A DNA stretch of 64,000 bases from the IMG/VR virus record IMGVR_UViG_3300021426_000005. The stretch is one strand, 5' to 3'. Below the pieces are notes generated by a model, which worked only from the letters and a program-made list of their open reading frames with translations, was not told where the DNA came from and searched no databases. Numbering within the stretch: position 1 is the first letter of the stretch; each line of letters starts with the position of its first letter. This stretch comes from a virus. Lineage: Duplodnaviria > Caudoviricetes. The translations under genes were made by a program, and so were the position numbers. Below are positions 22,123-39,417 of this stretch, piece by piece.

Positions 22123-22567
22123 CCCTCCTTAAAAGTGAATTTACTTCGTCTAAATGTTCCCACTTCCAAGTACAATTCGCACAATCATTAAAAGGCGTAG
22201 AACAATGTTCACAAGTTTGACAACTATGGTCAGCACAATCGGTGACTTCACTAAGTATCTCGACAGCTGACTTCAAGCAGGATATCGCTGTATTGAAATC
22301 TTTAGAAATTTTTGCACAAGTTGCATTGCTTTCCGCTATCAGCTTCTTTGCTGAAGCTAATTCTTCGCTCATGGCATCCATACAAACCATATATCCACAT
22401 AAGAAAGTCATTACTTCTGTATCGGTATAGCCGTAAGTATTTTTGATCCGTTCAATGAAACCTTGCAACTGAGTATGAATCTCATTCGCAGATAGTATTT
22501 TTGTATCCATATCATCACTCCTATTCTTTATCGAATTCAGGCAACTCAAGATCAGATATTGCATCAA
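22091..22567 (-). CDS. Hypothetical protein with a Cys-rich C-terminal module (start probably MDTKIL)
   Basis: LKSAVEIL...CQTCEHC...CANCTWKW; C-terminal module shared with the genes at 27987-29270. Confidence 0.55.
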   Translation of the reverse strand: MMQYLILSCLNSIKNRSDDMDTKILSANEIHTQLQGFIERIKNTYGYTDTEVMTFLCGYMVCMDAMSEELASAKKLIAESNATCAKISKDFNTAISCLKSAVEILSEVTDCADHSCQTCEHCSTPFNDCANCTWKWEHLDEVNSLLRRVEYESGTKSS

Positions 22568-22988
22568 ATACAGAACTGAGCTCTTTCAGCATCTGATATT
22601 TCTTAGTGAAAGCATTAAGCTCTGAATATGCAGAAGCAAGAAGTTCAGCATATTTGTCTTTGTGCTTCACTATAACATCTATACGTTCATATGTTTTATT
22701 TTCTGATGTAGGAAAGTAAGCCCTTATCGGAACTGCTTCTGATTCTTCTGTTTCTGGAACAACGCAGAGCATTCTGATGATCTGTCCAGCTTGATGAACT
22801 CTATATTTCTCAGCTGCAACGTCATCATTCCACTCAAATTCGTCATGCAACACTGCTCCAGCATCTCGGTTTGCTTCTAGAAGTGTTTTCGGCGTAAGCC
22901 CTACTGTATCTTCTAAAGCCTTAAACTGAGCTGCCGCAAGATTGGGATCTGCTTTGATCCCTGAGATTGATTTCCATTTATATACCAT
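22521..22988 (-). CDS. Conserved phage protein; accessory gene of the RAMP + GGY-NN array locus
   Basis: LTP..LL.A......LH.EFEWNDD.AAEKYR..QA..IIR motif; starts ~30 nt after the array, AGGTGG RBS. Confidence 0.7.
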   Translation of the reverse strand: MVYKWKSISGIKADPNLAAAQFKALEDTVGLTPKTLLEANRDAGAVLHDEFEWNDDVAAEKYRVHQAGQIIRMLCVVPETEESEAVPIRAYFPTSENKTYERIDVIVKHKDKYAELLASAYSELNAFTKKYQMLKELSSVFDAISDLELPEFDKE

Positions 22989-23015
22989 TTTGCACCACCT
23001 TAAATTAAATATTAT

Positions 23016-23693
23016 GCCTGACCTGCCATACCTTACCTTACCTCACCAAACCCCACACAAACAGAACATACCTTGCCTGCCACAATGGACCTCACCTAAA
23101 CTTGACTCGCCCTGCCGCAACCGACCTTACCTGCCATATCATGCCTTACATCACCATGACTCCCTAACCCAACCTTGCCTGCCGTACCTAACCCCAACTT
23201 AACGGACCGGACCAAAACGGACCTCACCTTGCCTGCCGAAATAGACCATAAGATACCACTCCGCACCCGAACTCACCTTGCCTGCCGTACTATACCATAT
23301 CCAACACTACCACGCCTTAACTAACCAATCCACTCCTGCCACAACATAACTCACCATACCTTAACATAACTCACCACACCTTAACATATGTCATCCTACC
23401 CTACCGTGCCTGCCATACCAAACCCTACACAACCGCACCATAGCACAACTTACCTTGCCTGCCAAAACCTACCACAACTTGACTAACCAAAGCGGACCAC
23501 ACCGAACCAATCCTGCCTCACCAAGCCAAGCCGGACCTAACCCCACCTTTACATACCTCGCCTGCCAAATCAAGCCAAGCCTGAACATACCGTACCTTAC
23601 CACACCACACCAAACCCCAACCCACCAAGCCTGCCCTAACAAAACCTACCACAACTTAACTAACCAAACCTCACCTAACCATCCACGCCTGCC
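23016..23693 (-). repeat. Non-coding array of 12 units GGCA-(GGY-NN)9-14; putative guide-RNA array (VIPR-like)
   Basis: CCTGCC anchors (+ strand) at 23022, 23076, 23130, 23178, 23232, 23281, 23335, 23409, 23458, 23512, 23561, 23630, 23688. Spacings are 54,54,48,54,49,54,74,49,54,49,69,58 (10 of 12 equal 5n+4). Interiors are NN-RCC pentamers. Confidence 0.9.
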
Positions 23694-23702
23694 ATAATCA
23701 GA

Positions 23703-23730
23703 GTAAAGGTAGAAATCAATCTACCTTTAC
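23703..23730 (-). other. Perfect 11-bp hairpin at the RAMP gene/array junction
   Basis: GTAAAGGTAGA-N6-TCTACCTTTAC; the stop codon lies in the loop. Confidence 0.75.
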
Positions 23731-24399
23731 ATGATACATACCGAATTGACCATCACACTCAGGTCTCCACTCGCCTACTCCGCAAACAAGACCTCCGGCG
23801 TTGATCATGTTAATGATGTTTTCCAGAGAATATGTGCCGTTATCATTGTACTTGAGTCTGAATGTAGCTGACCAGTTGCGGAATTCACCACGGTAACGGA
23901 TATCTGCTGTACCCATGCCGATTCTTACCATATCCTCCCTCATTATAGGAGTGTCAGATTCGATTTTCAGCATATCATCGTAATCACTTTCAATGAAGAA
24001 AGCACCTCTGAGCTCGGCCTTAGACTTTGACCAGCCCATACGATATGCGGCTGAAATAGCCGCCTGTTTGAATGCTGTGACAGGAAATCCGAATGTAGCC
24101 CCAGCTTCGATAGCCTTCGTAAAGGCATTCTCGCATTCTTCCTCAGAAGCACCGTCTGCCAGATCAGGCTTATTTGAAAGCCAGTACATGGACTGAATAA
24201 AGTCATCTACCGGATTCTTAGCAGCCTTCTGCTTTCCCTTGGCTTTGCCCTGCTGTGCTTCCAGCATCATACGCTTCGCTTTCTCAGACCAGGCGTGCAT
24301 GATGAGGGGTGAGTCTCCTACCAATGTGACTTCTACCGTCTTCATCTTGATAGGTCTGATCTCTACTACCTCTGATTTTGTTGTCTTTGTGGTTGCCAT
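23716..24399 (-). CDS. Solo Cas7/Csm3-like RAMP-fold protein (putative RNA-guided effector)
   Basis: VTLVGDSPLIMH (beta1 + SPL), GFPVTAFKQAAISAA (P..s.KG helix), RGAFFI, REDMVRI thumb, RYRGEF..W.ATF, and a C-terminal Gly-rich loop GVGEWRPECDGQFG. Confidence 0.75.
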   Translation of the reverse strand: MATTKTTKSEVVEIRPIKMKTVEVTLVGDSPLIMHAWSEKAKRMMLEAQQGKAKGKQKAAKNPVDDFIQSMYWLSNKPDLADGASEEECENAFTKAIEAGATFGFPVTAFKQAAISAAYRMGWSKSKAELRGAFFIESDYDDMLKIESDTPIMREDMVRIGMGTADIRYRGEFRNWSATFRLKYNDNGTYSLENIINMINAGGLVCGVGEWRPECDGQFGMYHVKVD

Positions 24400-24461: not shown

Positions 24462-25076
24462 CTATAACGACTTATCGTTCTCACTTTCCGATTTCTGGAT
24501 CTGATTATATATGTAAAGATAAAAGAAGTTGTCAATTGTATTACCAATAAGTGCCAATACGAACAAAGTTCTCAGGTTAAATGAAAACACCAATGCTAAT
24601 GCTGTACCTAATATCGTAGCTCCGGAACATATACTATTAGCATTGTTATCATATCTTTCTCTGAGTTCCTCTGTCGGATTTACCTTAGCCCGCATCTTGA
24701 TATTACCGCAACATAGGTTTCTGGTTATGATTGCAAATATCAATACGTTCAGCACAAAATAAAATTTTAGATCATTTCTAATTATCACATCTGCGAACAA
24801 TATAATATCGAATATGATCTCCAACAGCAGGATCTGTCTATAATAAGAAAACAGCTTACTACTGTACTTGTTCCATAATGTACCGAATATAATGGTTGAT
24901 ACACAAGATACTATCTGCTCAAATCCGATATATCCTTGAGTAACACACTTCATAAGCTCCGCATATATGTAAGGATAAGAAGCTGAATAGAATAATGTAC
25001 TTATCAGATTTGCAAGCAACATCAAATTTGATAGTCGCCTATAGTTGACTTTATTCATACCAACCGTCCGGATCAT
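24462..25076 (-). CDS. Membrane protein, half-MFS-like
   Basis: About 6 hydrophobic segments. Confidence 0.55.
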   Translation of the reverse strand: MIRTVGMNKVNYRRLSNLMLLANLISTLFYSASYPYIYAELMKCVTQGYIGFEQIVSCVSTIIFGTLWNKYSSKLFSYYRQILLLEIIFDIILFADVIIRNDLKFYFVLNVLIFAIITRNLCCGNIKMRAKVNPTEELRERYDNNANSICSGATILGTALALVFSFNLRTLFVLALIGNTIDNFFYLYIYNQIQKSESENDKSL

Positions 25077-27074: not shown

Positions 27075-27974
27075 TTAAAGCTCCACACGAATACCTGTAA
27101 TTTCTTCAAAAACATCTGCATCGAAATTTGGAATATCCTTAACCGCAGCCTTTTCAGCATTGGTCATATTATCCCACATAAGACCACAAGCCGTTTTGAA
27201 ATCAACGGTTTTCAGATAGCCACCAGTTGTCTCGTGTTCAGGATGAGCCACTTTTTCTTCATCGGTCATGTTTTCACTATATATCCACCAGTTGTTTTCA
27301 TACTTCCAATTCATGGCTCTTACAGCAAGGAGATTATTGAAATCATCTCTGCTCATATTAGTAGGGTTATTGAAGATATATAACGGCTGTTCGATAGAAT
27401 TAAAGAAGCCTGTAGAATAATTAGTTGAGTTCCAGTTGCCGGAGTTGCGGTTGCCGGAGTTCCAGTTGCCGGAGTTCCAGTCGCCGGAGTTCCAGTTGCC
27501 GGAGTTCCAGTCGCCGGAGTTCCAGTTGCCGGAGTTGCAGTTGCCGGAGTTGCGGTTGCCGGAGTTGCAGTTGCCGGAGTTCCAGTTGCCGGAGTTGCGG
27601 TTGCCGGAGTTGCAGTCGCCGGAGTTCCAGTCGCCGGAGTTCCGGTTGCCGGAGTTGCAGTTGCCGGTACAATCTTTTCCTGTATTGGCTAAATCAAGAA
27701 CTTCGTGCCAAGCAAGTTCCTTGATAATCGTGATTTCATCTGTGACAGACTTATCATCTCTTGTCTCCGTATGACCAATAGCTTCTACTTCTGCAACCTT
27801 ATTATTGCTGTTGAAATCATAATAATTAAAACAATCAGAAATCCTTTGACAGAAGTGAAAACCTGCACCACACATCTCAATGTTACCATTATGTTTGTAT
27901 GTCTTACCAACTTTATACTGAAACCCCATGCAAGTCCAGTCAGGATTAAAAACCTTATATCCTTTAATTCCCAT
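27075..27974 (-). CDS. Pentapeptide-repeat (G[ND][CRW]NS)16 phage protein
   Basis: KGYKVFNPDWTC..FQY.VG...C..GFHFC N-terminal domain, 16 pentapeptides, conserved C-terminus (PNFDADVFEEITGI). Confidence 0.8.
   Translation of the reverse strand: MGIKGYKVFNPDWTCMGFQYKVGKTYKHNGNIEMCGAGFHFCQRISDCFNYYDFNSNNKVAEVEAIGHTETRDDKSVTDEITIIKELAWHEVLDLANTGKDCTGNCNSGNRNSGDWNSGDCNSGNRNSGNWNSGNCNSGNRNSGNCNSGNWNSGDWNSGNWNSGDWNSGNWNSGNRNSGNWNSTNYSTGFFNSIEQPLYIFNNPTNMSRDDFNNLLAVRAMNWKYENNWWIYSENMTDEEKVAHPEHETTGGYLKTVDFKTACGLMWDNMTNAEKAAVKDIPNFDADVFEEITGIRVEL
27428..27667 (-). repeat. 15-bp tandem repeat x16 (GGC RAC YGS AAC TCC), coding
   Basis: Directly visible; encodes the pentapeptides. Confidence 0.9.
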
Positions 27975-38094: not shown

Positions 38095-39417
38095 TTATCC
38101 TAACCAATTGATTGTGACCTTTGATCCGGTAGCCCCCCAAGGAGCACCAGAAATTGAACCAGATGACTTGTGAATGTTGATGGTGCAATCTTCCTTGACA
38201 CCTCTACCAGAAAACGCTCGGGCATTGATCGCTGTTACTGTACTTGGAATATCAATGACACATGATTCTGCAAACTCCGCACCAGCACGACCGCCTACTT
38301 CAAATGCGTTTTCACCAATAGACGTTACACCAGACTTTAATGTAATAGAAGTGAGTAGATTGCACCGACTACACATTCCCCGTGGAATAATTGATACAGT
38401 ACCAGGAATTTCTATTTCAGTAAGTCCAGAAGGCATATCCGATGATCCAGCAAAAGCAAATTCCCCAATTTCAGTAACAGTATCTGGAATTGTCACAGTG
38501 TTCAATGAGCTACAGCTGTAAAATGTATATGGTGTGATCTTAGTTATAGATGTATCTTCTAAATTCACAGATTGCAGTGATTGACAGAAGCCGAATGTAC
38601 CATAAGTAGCATTACTCATACTAGGGTTGTCAGAACCCAATGAAGTTAAAGATGAAGGTAGTTCAACGGTTTCAACACCAGAGCGCATGAAGCATCCGGC
38701 TTCTATTGATATCGTACCTTCTGGTATAGATACCGATTTCAAGGAACTACACGCACTAAACACATGATCTCCTATTACACTTAATCCAGATGAAAACGAA
38801 ACTTCACTCAATGCAGTACAACTAGCAAATGCAGATGCACCGATAGTTTCGACACTGCTAGGAATATCTATGGCAGTAAGCGATGCACAACCATTAAATG
38901 CACCAGATGGAATAGCTTTTAAGTTGGCAGGTAAGTTTACACTTTCCAAACTTTTGCAACTCTGACAAACACCACCGCCCAAAACGGCATTGTCTGGAAA
39001 ATCTATGGTTCTTAAAGCGCACTTAGAAAATGCACTCTTACCTATAGAAGTGCAAGTGTCAGGAATATTAATCGTAACCAATCCGGTACATTCAGCAAAT
39101 CCATAATCACCTATACTGATGATTCTCGCAGGGATAGACACAGTAGTGATCAAATTTCTACCGTAAAACCCATAATTACCTACCTTTGTCACACTCTTCG
39201 GAAATTCAATCGCAGTTATAGTGTTTTCAATCATCTTAGCCAGTGCATCTGTGTTATCATCAGGAACATCAGCATCAGGAGCTTTACTTATCTGCAAAAA
39301 ATCATTCGCATTTATAGGTCCAGGAACTGACTGAACGACCCCTGGCTCCATATCCTTACCGTAAAAAGTCTGATTCTCAGATGACATATTGATATAATTC
39401 ATAGCCACAACAATCAC
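38095..39417 (-). CDS. BspA/TpLRR-type (LRR_5) leucine-rich repeat protein
   Basis: Repeated L..I.IP.SV..IG..AF..C units. Confidence 0.9.
   Translation of the reverse strand: MIVVAMNYINMSSENQTFYGKDMEPGVVQSVPGPINANDFLQISKAPDADVPDDNTDALAKMIENTITAIEFPKSVTKVGNYGFYGRNLITTVSIPARIISIGDYGFAECTGLVTINIPDTCTSIGKSAFSKCALRTIDFPDNAVLGGGVCQSCKSLESVNLPANLKAIPSGAFNGCASLTAIDIPSSVETIGASAFASCTALSEVSFSSGLSVIGDHVFSACSSLKSVSIPEGTISIEAGCFMRSGVETVELPSSLTSLGSDNPSMSNATYGTFGFCQSLQSVNLEDTSITKITPYTFYSCSSLNTVTIPDTVTEIGEFAFAGSSDMPSGLTEIEIPGTVSIIPRGMCSRCNLLTSITLKSGVTSIGENAFEVGGRAGAEFAESCVIDIPSTVTAINARAFSGRGVKEDCTINIHKSSGSISGAPWGATGSKVTINWLG

What the first reader, a model, noticed from the sequence alone, without database searches (positions are those of the whole stretch)
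23716..24399. Minimal stand-alone Cas7/Csm3-like RAMP in a phage
Seen: motifs in RAMP order, namely VEVTLVGDSPLIMH, FGFPVTAFKQAAISAA, RGAFFI, MREDMVRIG, RYRGEFRNWSATFRLKY and the terminal Gly loop GVGEWRPECDGQFG. Established: these parallel the Csm3/Cmr4-type t.sPl.iG, P.IPGSSlKG, thumb and G-rich loop (lGg..s.GyG) elements. Inference: a compact, possibly ancestral, filament-forming RNA-binding effector with no obvious nuclease partner.
Basis: partly seen in the sequence, partly recalled or inferred. Interest (0 to 1): 0.85.

Follow-up and report, generated by a model that had tools for sequence, protein, structure and literature searches.

The report
Phage VIPR guide-RNA system (Vipr protein)
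The gene is real and encodes a Vipr protein, the small Cas7-like protein of the phage VIPR RNA-guided DNA-silencing systems first described in 2026.

Summary
ORF 23716-24399 (-), 227 aa, is confirmed. Its predicted fold matches only Cas7/Csm3-type RAMPs (Z up to 11.1). A profile of the family hits the solved SUSP1 Vipr protein (E 1.2e-13), and both belong to phrog_4652. The residues that hold the GGY bases in the SUSP1 cryo-EM structure are kept here.

Directly downstream on the same strand (23693-23028) lie 14 head-to-tail units. Each is a 4-nt GGCA junction followed by 3-14 pentamers (mostly 9-14) with conserved GGY and free NN, and there are no tails. This fits the "staggered" vrRNA array named in the VIPR preprint. 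A 155-aa gene (22521-22988, phrog_15946) follows.

All 22 viral relatives carry vipr plus an array. All 21 that reach far enough also carry the 155-aa gene, in otherwise unrelated backbones.

Read by the published 1-nt-skip rule, two guides gave exact matches. All of them fall in one gene family, in frame, with the skipped base at the wobble position:
- Guide 9 matches the 3' end of DUF2188 genes (13 of 13 hits).
- Guide 2 matches codons 23-32 of an HU-CCDC81/SPOR gene (6 of 6 hits).

Verdict: a new member of a known kind, not SUSP1-type (type II). RNP assembly, array processing and silencing are inferred, not shown, for this locus.

The parts
23716..24399 (-). vipr gene: 227-aa minimal single-RRM RAMP (Vipr)
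   Evidence: ORF. phrog_4652 E 3.5e-29; SUSP2 Vipr hits the same phrog at 1.4e-96. Family profile vs PDB 36pp 'SUSP1 Vipr protein' E 1.2e-13. hhalign probability 98.2. AF2 pLDDT 96. Csm3 matches at Z 11.1. GGY-contact residues H35, R170, E210, W211, R212.
23703..23730 (-). perfect 11-bp hairpin spanning the vipr stop codon, 10 nt before the first array unit
   Evidence: Inverted repeat I2. The 22 nt between the stop codon and the first unit are the same in the close relative L027. Function unknown; no U-tract and not called as a terminator.
23028..23693 (-). staggered vrRNA array: 13 well-formed units plus a degenerate 14th (23027 to about 22989) that runs into the ribosome-binding site of the next gene
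   Evidence: Units start with GGCAGG; their lengths are mostly 5n+4. Pentamer positions: G 0.83, G/T 0.90, T/C 0.81, then two near-random positions. It is the only such array in the 64 kb.
23567..23635 (-). unit 2 (13 pentamers); the first 10 form a guide matching an HU-CCDC81/SPOR gene
23184..23237 (-). unit 9 (10 pentamers); guide matching the 3' end of DUF2188 genes
   Evidence: The unit is kept in the close relative L027.
23415..23463 (-). unit 5 (9 pentamers); possible guide against a phage tape-measure gene, not beyond chance
22521..22988 (-). candidate Vipr-accessory (vap) gene, 155 aa, phrog_15946
   Evidence: Present in all 21 related loci that reach far enough, directly after the array in 20 of them, while no other neighbour is shared. 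phrog_15946 E 1.7e-17. The same phrog lies next to vipr in Gordonia phage Pipp. Model pLDDT 91.6; only weak winged-helix-like matches.

Best explanation
The ORF is the Vipr protein of a phage-borne VIPR (Viral Interference Programmable Repeat) system. The module is vipr, then a tail-less 'staggered' array of about 14 vrRNAs, then a conserved 155-aa accessory gene, all on the minus strand. They are probably transcribed together. By homology with SUSP1 VIPR, one Vipr protomer binds each pentamer of a vrRNA. H35 and E210 hold the first G, R170 and W211 the second, and R212 the pyrimidine. The two free bases of each pentamer are left exposed. The helical filament then pairs those dinucleotides with double-stranded DNA, skipping every third target base, and blocks transcription of genes in competing mobile elements or possibly in the host. 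Shown here: family membership, fold, conserved contact residues, array anatomy, conserved three-part synteny, hypervariable NN, and in-frame wobble-skipping matches for two guides. Inferred: transcription, cutting of the array at the GGCA junctions, RNP assembly, DNA binding, silencing, and the role of the 155-aa protein.
For: Protein family:
- The profile of 75 family members hits PDB 36pp 'SUSP1 Vipr protein' at E 1.2e-13, with no other significant hit.
- hhalign to SUSP2 Vipr gives probability 98.2.
- Both proteins fall in phrog_4652.
- The fold matches Csm3/Cas7 only (Foldseek E 1.7e-6; Z 11.1, 153 residues, rmsd 3.6).
- SUSP1 residues H17, R138, D177, W178 and R179, which bind GGY, map to H35, R170, E210, W211 and R212. 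R170 and R212 are invariant in 75 of 75 sequences.

Array:
- Pooled over the window and 21 related arrays that use this junction, 104 of 138 junction spacings are 5n+4. The pentamer logo is G 0.94, G 0.78, Y 0.93, then 0.11-0.12 bits at the two free positions.
- All 22 IMG/VR relatives carry such an array downstream of vipr on the same strand (next to it in 21) and nowhere else within 4 kb.
- 64 of 70 parsed guides have distinct NN strings.
- A relative with 94% nucleotide identity has 8 units instead of 14. Whole units are missing or replaced.

Targets:
- Guide 9 gives 1 viral and 12 genomic exact matches. All sit at the stop-codon end of DUF2188 genes and read N/K-D-P-F-P-P-K-G-stop.
- All nine skip positions vary among those hits and the flanks have diverged.
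- Guide 2 (first 10 pentamers) gives 6 exact metagenome matches. All are in frame in the N-terminal HU-CCDC81 domain of a SPOR protein, 66 nt after the start codon.
- Both guides have the same sense as the mRNA, so they can pair only with the template DNA strand.
- No guide matches the window itself above the shuffled-guide null.

Published mechanism.
Against: Nothing was measured on this locus. No RNA data exist for it, so transcription and processing of the array are unproven. The discovery preprint states that staggered arrays were not among the architectures it confirmed by small-RNA sequencing. The system lacks the 3' tail and pseudoknot that cap SUSP1 vrRNAs, so filament capping may differ. 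SUSP1 K33, needed for silencing there, maps to Q69 here. Five other guides tested gave no match clearly beyond chance, and only exact matches could be searched. The accessory protein has no recognisable domain.
Confidence: 0.88

Rival explanations
1. Same RNP, but it acts by destroying the target rather than by silencing. The 155-aa protein, or an unlinked host or phage nuclease, would be recruited to the bound DNA, as proposed for VIPR types III-V.
For: The preprint reports nuclease or helicase vap genes in types III-V. The accessory gene here is strictly linked to vipr and its function is unknown.
Against: The 155-aa protein matches no nuclease or helicase family in Pfam, NCBIfam or PADLOC. 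Its weak structural matches are winged-helix domains and a helical hairpin. The preprint places phage-borne systems with DNA-binding vaps among the repressing types.
Confidence: 0.07
2. An RNA-targeting Csm3-like backbone: the filament binds or cuts complementary transcripts, as type III CRISPR Cas7 does.
For: The best structural matches are Csm3 subunits. An Asp at residue 29, after the first strand, is present in 38 of 75 family members. Whether it sits where the Csm3 catalytic Asp does was not tested.
Against: Guides 2 and 9 have the same sense as the mRNAs of their matched genes, so they cannot pair with those transcripts. D29 is not conserved: it is T, I or K in many members. SUSP1 VIPR binds dsDNA and silences from either strand.
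Confidence: 0.03
3. An anti-CRISPR decoy: a phage Cas7 mimic that soaks up host crRNAs or poisons host type III complexes. The GT-rich tract would then be an unrelated DNA element such as a packaging or replication site.
For: The gene is phage-borne and Cas7-like. The array lies inside a structural-gene region of the genome.
Against: The array travels with the gene through otherwise unrelated phage backbones. It keeps GGY while NN is free. Its NN strings decode to conserved peptide motifs of other genes in the wobble register, which a DNA site or a decoy would not do. The GGY-binding residues of Vipr are kept.
Confidence: 0.02

Closest known systems
SUSP1 / P. fulva type II VIPR (Vipr + vap1 + tailed vrRNAs); bioRxiv 10.64898/2026.04.26.720920, .720927 and 10.64898/2026.10.15.759431
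   Same: Homologous Vipr (same phrog, profile E 1.2e-13). Conserved GGY-contact residues. Pentamer vrRNAs with 9-14 repeats. A small linked accessory gene. Guides that match coding DNA with the skipped base at the wobble position. No self-targets.
   Different: Only about 34% identity over the C-terminal third, and an extra lysine-rich helix-loop of about 25 residues after the first strand. The vrRNAs are head to tail with a 4-nt junction and no roughly 40-nt tail or pseudoknot. The accessory gene is phrog_15946, not phrog_5926, with no detectable similarity between the two. There are 14 guides rather than 4.
Vipr loci of actinobacteriophages (Gordonia phage Pipp gp42-gp44; Mycobacterium phages Donkeykong, Florinda and others)
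   Same: Full-length 36-37% identity. In Pipp the order is the same: vipr, then an overlapping-register pentamer array, then a phrog_15946 gene.
   Different: Different host phylum and phage backbone. In Pipp the array is annotated as a protein-coding gene (gp43). Those phages are temperate, with an integrase nearby.
CRISPR type III Cas7 (Csm3 / Cmr4)
   Same: RRM core, thumb hairpin and glycine-rich loop. Backbone subunit that polymerises on a guide RNA. Best structural match (Z 10-11).
   Different: About 12% identity and no hit to any Cas7 HMM. No CRISPR repeats or cas genes nearby. Period of 5 nt with three bases sequestered, instead of 6 nt with one flipped. DNA rather than RNA target, by homology.

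Membership tests
VIPR system (Vipr protein) | Sequence homology to an experimentally characterised Vipr | tested here: met
   Family profile vs PDB 36pp SUSP1 Vipr E 1.2e-13. hhalign probability 98.2. Shared phrog_4652.
VIPR system (Vipr protein) | Minimal single-RRM RAMP fold with thumb and glycine-rich loop | tested here: met
   AF2 model pLDDT 96. The top 50 structural matches are all Cas7-type RAMPs covering residues 15-227. G-loop columns are invariant. The thumb was assigned from the long hairpin at 152-173, not from a residue-level superposition.
VIPR system (Vipr protein) | Residues that recognise G1, G2 and Y3 in the SUSP1 cryo-EM structure (H17, R138, D177, W178, R179) | tested here: met
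   They map to H35, R170, E210, W211 and R212. D to E is conservative: the family has E in 57 and D in 18 of 75. The H17-H35 pairing was made by eye from the shared G-x-x-P-x-x-x-H motif, because hmmalign left the SUSP2 N-terminus unaligned. K33 of SUSP1 is not kept (Q69).
VIPR system (vrRNA) | Adjacent RNA locus of tandem GGYNN pentamers (4 or more; typically 9-16) with conserved GGY and hypervariable NN | tested here: met
   13 well-formed units, mostly 9-14 pentamers. NN information is 0.09-0.14 bits, against 0.63-1.08 bits for GGY.
VIPR system | Linked vipr-accessory (vap) gene | tested here: inconclusive
   A strictly co-inherited 155-aa gene is present. It is not vap1. Whether it is one of the published vap2-6 could not be checked, because their sequences are not in the held text.
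VIPR system | Guides match DNA by the 1-nt-skip rule, usually with the skip at the codon wobble position; no self-targets | tested here: met
   Met for guides 2 and 9. No self-match above the null. The other guides gave no clear target under exact-match search.
VIPR system | Vipr-vrRNA ribonucleoprotein that binds dsDNA and silences transcription | not testable with these tools
   Needs small-RNA sequencing, pull-down, binding and reporter assays.
Type II VIPR (SUSP1 clade) | Each vrRNA ends in a conserved tail of about 40 nt (pseudoknot); vap1 accessory gene | tested here: not met
   Units abut with only a GGCA junction, whereas SUSP2 repeat tracts are followed by non-repeat tails. The accessory gene is unrelated to vap1. 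The array fits the 'staggered, 1-nt overlapping' architecture of the preprint's fig. S18 legend.
CRISPR-Cas Cas7 (Csm3/Cmr4) | Match to a Cas7/RAMP sequence family model | tested here: not met
   No hit in Pfam, NCBIfam or PADLOC.
CRISPR-Cas Cas7 (Csm3/Cmr4) | Encoded with other cas genes and a CRISPR repeat-spacer array | tested here: not met
   The neighbours have no cas family hits. The only repeat structure nearby is the pentamer array.

The most novel reading that the evidence does not exclude
Guide 2 is aimed at a host chromosomal gene, not at a rival mobile element. Its 20 informative bases exactly match codons 23-32 of a Bacteroidota-type HU-CCDC81/SPOR protein gene. In the one large contig examined, that gene is flanked by ruvC, ferrochelatase and sugar-metabolism genes. 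If so, a large gut phage would use VIPR to silence a host nucleoid or division-associated gene during infection. The text read from the three preprints does not describe that use. A second open point is how a tail-less staggered array is cut and capped.
Probability: 0.22. Interest if true: 0.7.

Novelty: new member of a known kind. Interest (0 to 1): 0.45.

Why it matters
VIPR is a very recently described kind of RNA-guided DNA recognition, proposed as the ancestor of CRISPR RAMPs. This locus extends it to a large tailed phage of animal guts; a near-identical relative sits on a 132-kb contig.

It gives a clean example of the staggered, tail-less array, which the discovery preprint did not confirm experimentally. 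It also ties that architecture to a specific accessory family, phrog_15946, shared with actinobacteriophages.

Two guides decode to invariant peptide motifs: the C-terminus of DUF2188 proteins and the N-terminal motif of the HU-CCDC81 domain. This shows directly how wobble-skipping lets one guide cover very divergent alleles. One of those guides raises the testable idea that phages also aim VIPR at host genes.

For genome annotation, phrog_4652 can now be named Vipr. ORFs called across the arrays, such as Pipp gp43 and the short ORFs at 23455-23697 here, are probably spurious.

Tried and rejected
**Searches that found nothing**
- blastn of the locus against 50,697 phage records: no match.
- Rfam: no family, no hammerhead.
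- Promoter and terminator consensus scans: nothing above shuffles.
- No whole genome is held for this window.
- No RNA holder is listed among public runs. The DNA occurs in animal gut metagenomes.

**Accessory protein**
- Complex prediction of Vipr with the 155-aa protein: no verdict.
- Fold searches: Foldseek found nothing at E<=0.001. VIA-wide best was Z 5.2, below the noise level stated by the tool. The winged-helix reading is therefore only a hint.

**Target scans (exact matches only)**
- Guide 4: none in viral or metagenome contigs.
- Guide 13: none in viral contigs.
- Guide 2, full 13 pentamers and first 10: none in viral contigs.
- Guide 3: one viral hit inside an amidotransferase-like gene with the skip off the wobble position, taken as chance.
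- Guide 5: ten viral hits. Seven are one helicase-gene sequence with the skip off the wobble position. Three are tape-measure genes in the wobble register, antisense. The total is about what 18 informative bases give by chance, so this is left open.
- Guide 13 at 16 of 20 near the DUF2188 site of the Enterococcus asini contig: within the null.
- Guide-2 target in 401 Bacteroidia genomes with up to 2 mismatches: 8 hits against 12 for the reversed control, so no enrichment.

**Ideas dropped**
- A virion structural protein, suggested by its place between the portal and tail-tube genes.
- A TRAP-like or CsrA-like RNA-binding regulator for the 5-nt period.
- G-quadruplex DNA.

Full report
**The observation**

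All six quoted motifs are present in order.

It is a real, widespread gene:
- 6232 relatives in the 90%-clustered protein collection.
- 2954 representative clusters at 50% identity.
- No name in Pfam, NCBIfam or PADLOC.
- One clear viral family, phrog_4652, matched end to end at E 3.5e-29.

The window is a tailed phage read entirely on the minus strand. It carries a T4-type portal, family A DNA polymerase, DnaB-like helicase, tail tube and tail lysozyme. No whole genome is held for it. Its DNA is found in animal gut metagenomes, and a near-identical relative sits on a 132-kb contig.

**What the protein is**

A 75-sequence alignment (A1) gave an AlphaFold model with mean pLDDT 96.
- Foldseek against the PDB returned 63 matches at E<=0.001, and the listed ones are Cas7-type subunits: Csm3, type VII Cas7, Cmr4, Cas7-11.
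- The second-look aligner gave Z up to 11.1 (153 residues, rmsd 3.6, about 12% identity) over residues 15-227. All 50 listed entries were of that kind.

At the level of sequence it is not a Csm3 or Cmr4, because no Cas7 model in three libraries matches it.

The A1 profile has one significant hit among solved structures: 36pp, "SUSP1 Vipr protein", E 1.2e-13. That led to three 2026 preprints from one laboratory.
- Discovery paper (10.64898/2026.04.26.720920). It defines VIPR systems: a small Vipr RAMP, vrRNAs made of 9-16 pentamers with conserved GGY and free NN, usually one accessory gene (vap), and seven types. Recognition of double-stranded DNA uses the NN dinucleotides with one target base skipped per repeat.
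- Structural paper (10.64898/2026.04.26.720927). It shows one protomer per repeat in a right-handed helical filament and names the residues that hold G1, G2 and Y3.
- Third paper (10.64898/2026.10.15.759431). It shows phage-against-satellite conflict.

SUSP2 Vipr falls in the same phrog_4652 at 1.4e-96 and aligns to A1 with hhalign probability 98.2.

The contact residues map onto the window protein as follows:

| SUSP1 residue | Window residue | Note |
|---|---|---|
| R138 | R170 | invariant in 75 of 75 |
| D177 | E210 | family has E in 57, D in 18 |
| W178 | W211 | |
| R179 | R212 | invariant in 75 of 75 |
| H17 | H35 | paired by eye from the shared motif after the first strand; 68 of 75 |
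| K33 | Q69 | not kept |

**The RNA array**

Ten bases after a perfect 11-bp hairpin that spans the stop codon, the minus strand becomes a 670-nt G/T-rich tract.
- Cut at every GGCAGG, it gives 14 units of 58, 69, 49, 54, 49, 74, 54, 49, 54, 48, 19, 35, 54 and 39 nt.
- Each unit is a 4-nt junction plus whole pentamers.
- Pentamer positions 1-3 are G, G/T and T/C, carrying 1.08, 0.63 and 0.63 bits. Positions 4-5 carry 0.14 and 0.09 bits.
- A simple pentamer caller finds this array and no other in the 64 kb.

The same holds for all 22 IMG/VR relatives of the protein (47-75% identity). Each has one array on the vipr strand downstream of vipr, right after it in 21 of them, and none elsewhere within 4 kb.

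Pooled over the window and the 21 related arrays that use this junction:
- 104 of 138 junction spacings are 5n+4, with modes at 44, 49, 54 and 59.
- The logo sharpens to G 0.94, G 0.78, Y 0.93 and two free positions.
- One relative uses GGCAG followed by TT instead.

Because the junction is one base short of a pentamer, successive guides are one base out of register. This fits the "staggered arrays, 1-nt overlapping" of the preprint's figure S18 legend. SUSP2, by contrast, has separate repeat tracts, each followed by a non-repeat tail. This system is therefore not type II.

The guides are hypervariable: 64 distinct NN strings among 70 parsed guides. A relative with 94% nucleotide identity in the flanks has 8 units instead of 14. 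It lacks units 2-7, keeps units 8-12 and has a different unit in place of 13. Three units (1, 4 and 7) share five consecutive NN dinucleotides at different offsets, with different flanks (patterns).

**The accessory gene**

Of sixteen window ORFs around the locus, only two recur in the related loci: vipr itself and the 155-aa ORF at 22521-22988. The latter is present in all 21 loci that reach far enough, directly after the array in 20 of them.
- It belongs to phrog_15946.
- It has no similarity to SUSP2 vap1, which is phrog_5926.
- It recurs next to vipr in Gordonia phage Pipp, where the array lies under the annotated gp43.
- Its model is confident (pLDDT 91.6), but the fold searches give only sub-threshold winged-helix-like matches for residues 10-105 plus a C-terminal helical hairpin.

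I treat it as the vap of this VIPR type, function unknown. A DNA-binding role is a weak guess.

**Targets**

I turned each well-formed unit into a pattern of NN joined by one wildcard, as in the preprints.

No guide matches the window better than shuffled guides do.

*Guide 9* (20 informative bases):
- Exact scans gave one viral contig and 12 genome contigs from 12 widely different taxa.
- All 13 sites are the last eight codons plus the stop codon of a DUF2188 gene, in frame, with every skipped base at the wobble position.
- All nine skip positions vary among the hits. The flanks are 47% (upstream) and 25% (downstream) identical.

*Guide 2* (first ten pentamers):
- Six exact metagenome hits with three distinct nucleotide sequences.
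- All are in frame at codons 23-32 of a protein with HU-CCDC81_bac_1, HU-CCDC81_bac_2 and SPOR domains. In the full-length copy examined (L055) the site begins 66 nt after the start codon.
- The last three pentamers of that unit do not match (21 of 26). Two of them recur at the 3' end of unit 3. They may not be guide positions.

A single hit would not be significant in databases this large. What chance does not give is every hit landing on one conserved peptide motif in the wobble register.

Both guides have the sense of the mRNA, so pairing is possible only with the template DNA strand. This agrees with DNA targeting and argues against RNA targeting.

The other guides gave nothing clear (see Tried and rejected). 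Only exact matches could be searched, whereas the preprints accept 80%.

**How it most likely works**

1. The minus-strand transcript carries vipr, the array and the accessory gene. The last degenerate unit runs into the ribosome-binding site of the 155-aa ORF.
2. Vipr protomers load one per pentamer, burying GGY and exposing NN.
3. The 4-nt junction breaks the register and marks where units are separated. The nuclease that cuts there is unknown.
4. Each filament of 9-14 protomers then reads 18-28 bases of double-stranded DNA, skipping every third base, and blocks transcription.

Steps 1-4 are inferred from homology. The anatomy, the conservation and the target register are shown here.

**Novelty and score**

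The kind of system is published, so this is a new member of a known kind. New here are:
- the gut-phage setting with a 14-unit staggered array;
- the link between this architecture and phrog_15946, from actinophages to gut phages;
- guides that decode to invariant peptide motifs;
- a guide whose exact matches lie in what looks like a chromosomal host gene. A terminase-like gene lies 2.2 kb upstream in that contig, so a mobile-element context is not excluded.

The earlier notes of this scan on the same stretch describe the array, the shared dinucleotide strings, the 20-nt duplication, the hairpin and the accessory gene. I re-derived each of them independently.

Noticed in passing
L024:3614-3883 (Gordonia phage Pipp, MN234179.1 33093-33362, gp43): The annotated 89-aa 'hypothetical protein' gp43 coincides with overlapping-register GGY pentamer runs between the Vipr homologue gp42 and the phrog_15946 gene gp44. 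It is probably a vrRNA array and not a protein gene.
   Followed up: partly
window 23518-23635 (units 2 and 3): Both units end with the same two pentamers (GGCTT twice). In unit 2 these positions do not match the target that the first ten pentamers match exactly. They may be a short non-guide 3' element in some units.
   Followed up: partly
window 23287-23693 (units 1, 4, 7): Three guides share five consecutive NN dinucleotides at different offsets, with different flanks. This looks like several guides against diverged alleles of one conserved motif. Unit 4 had no exact hit in viral or metagenome contigs; units 1 and 7 were not scanned.
   Followed up: partly
window 23341-23414 (unit 6): An in-register 20-nt (four-pentamer) tandem duplication, 2.3 copies at 96% identity, makes this the longest unit. 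This suggests guides also change by slippage.
   Followed up: partly
window 22942-23697, both strands: Several 44-86-aa ORFs are listed across the array. They are artefacts of the repeat. Gene callers in related contigs also extend the accessory gene's start into the array.
   Followed up: yes
L055:2686-4014: A terminase large-subunit gene lies 2.2 kb upstream of the HU-CCDC81/SPOR gene matched by guide 2. ruvC lies between them and housekeeping genes lie downstream. The target may sit beside a cryptic phage-like element.
   Followed up: no
window 27075-27974: A 299-aa protein (phrog_14105) carries a long run of short Ser/Gly/Asn-rich repeats in its middle. Function unknown.
   Followed up: no
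window 24462-25076: The gene just upstream of vipr encodes a 204-aa hydrophobic, membrane-like protein with no family hit. It is not conserved next to vipr in any related locus, so it is not part of the module.
   Followed up: partly
window 38095-39417: A BspA-type leucine-rich-repeat protein (LRR_5, E 2.4e-73) lies in the structural region, typical of gut anaerobe phages.
   Followed up: no
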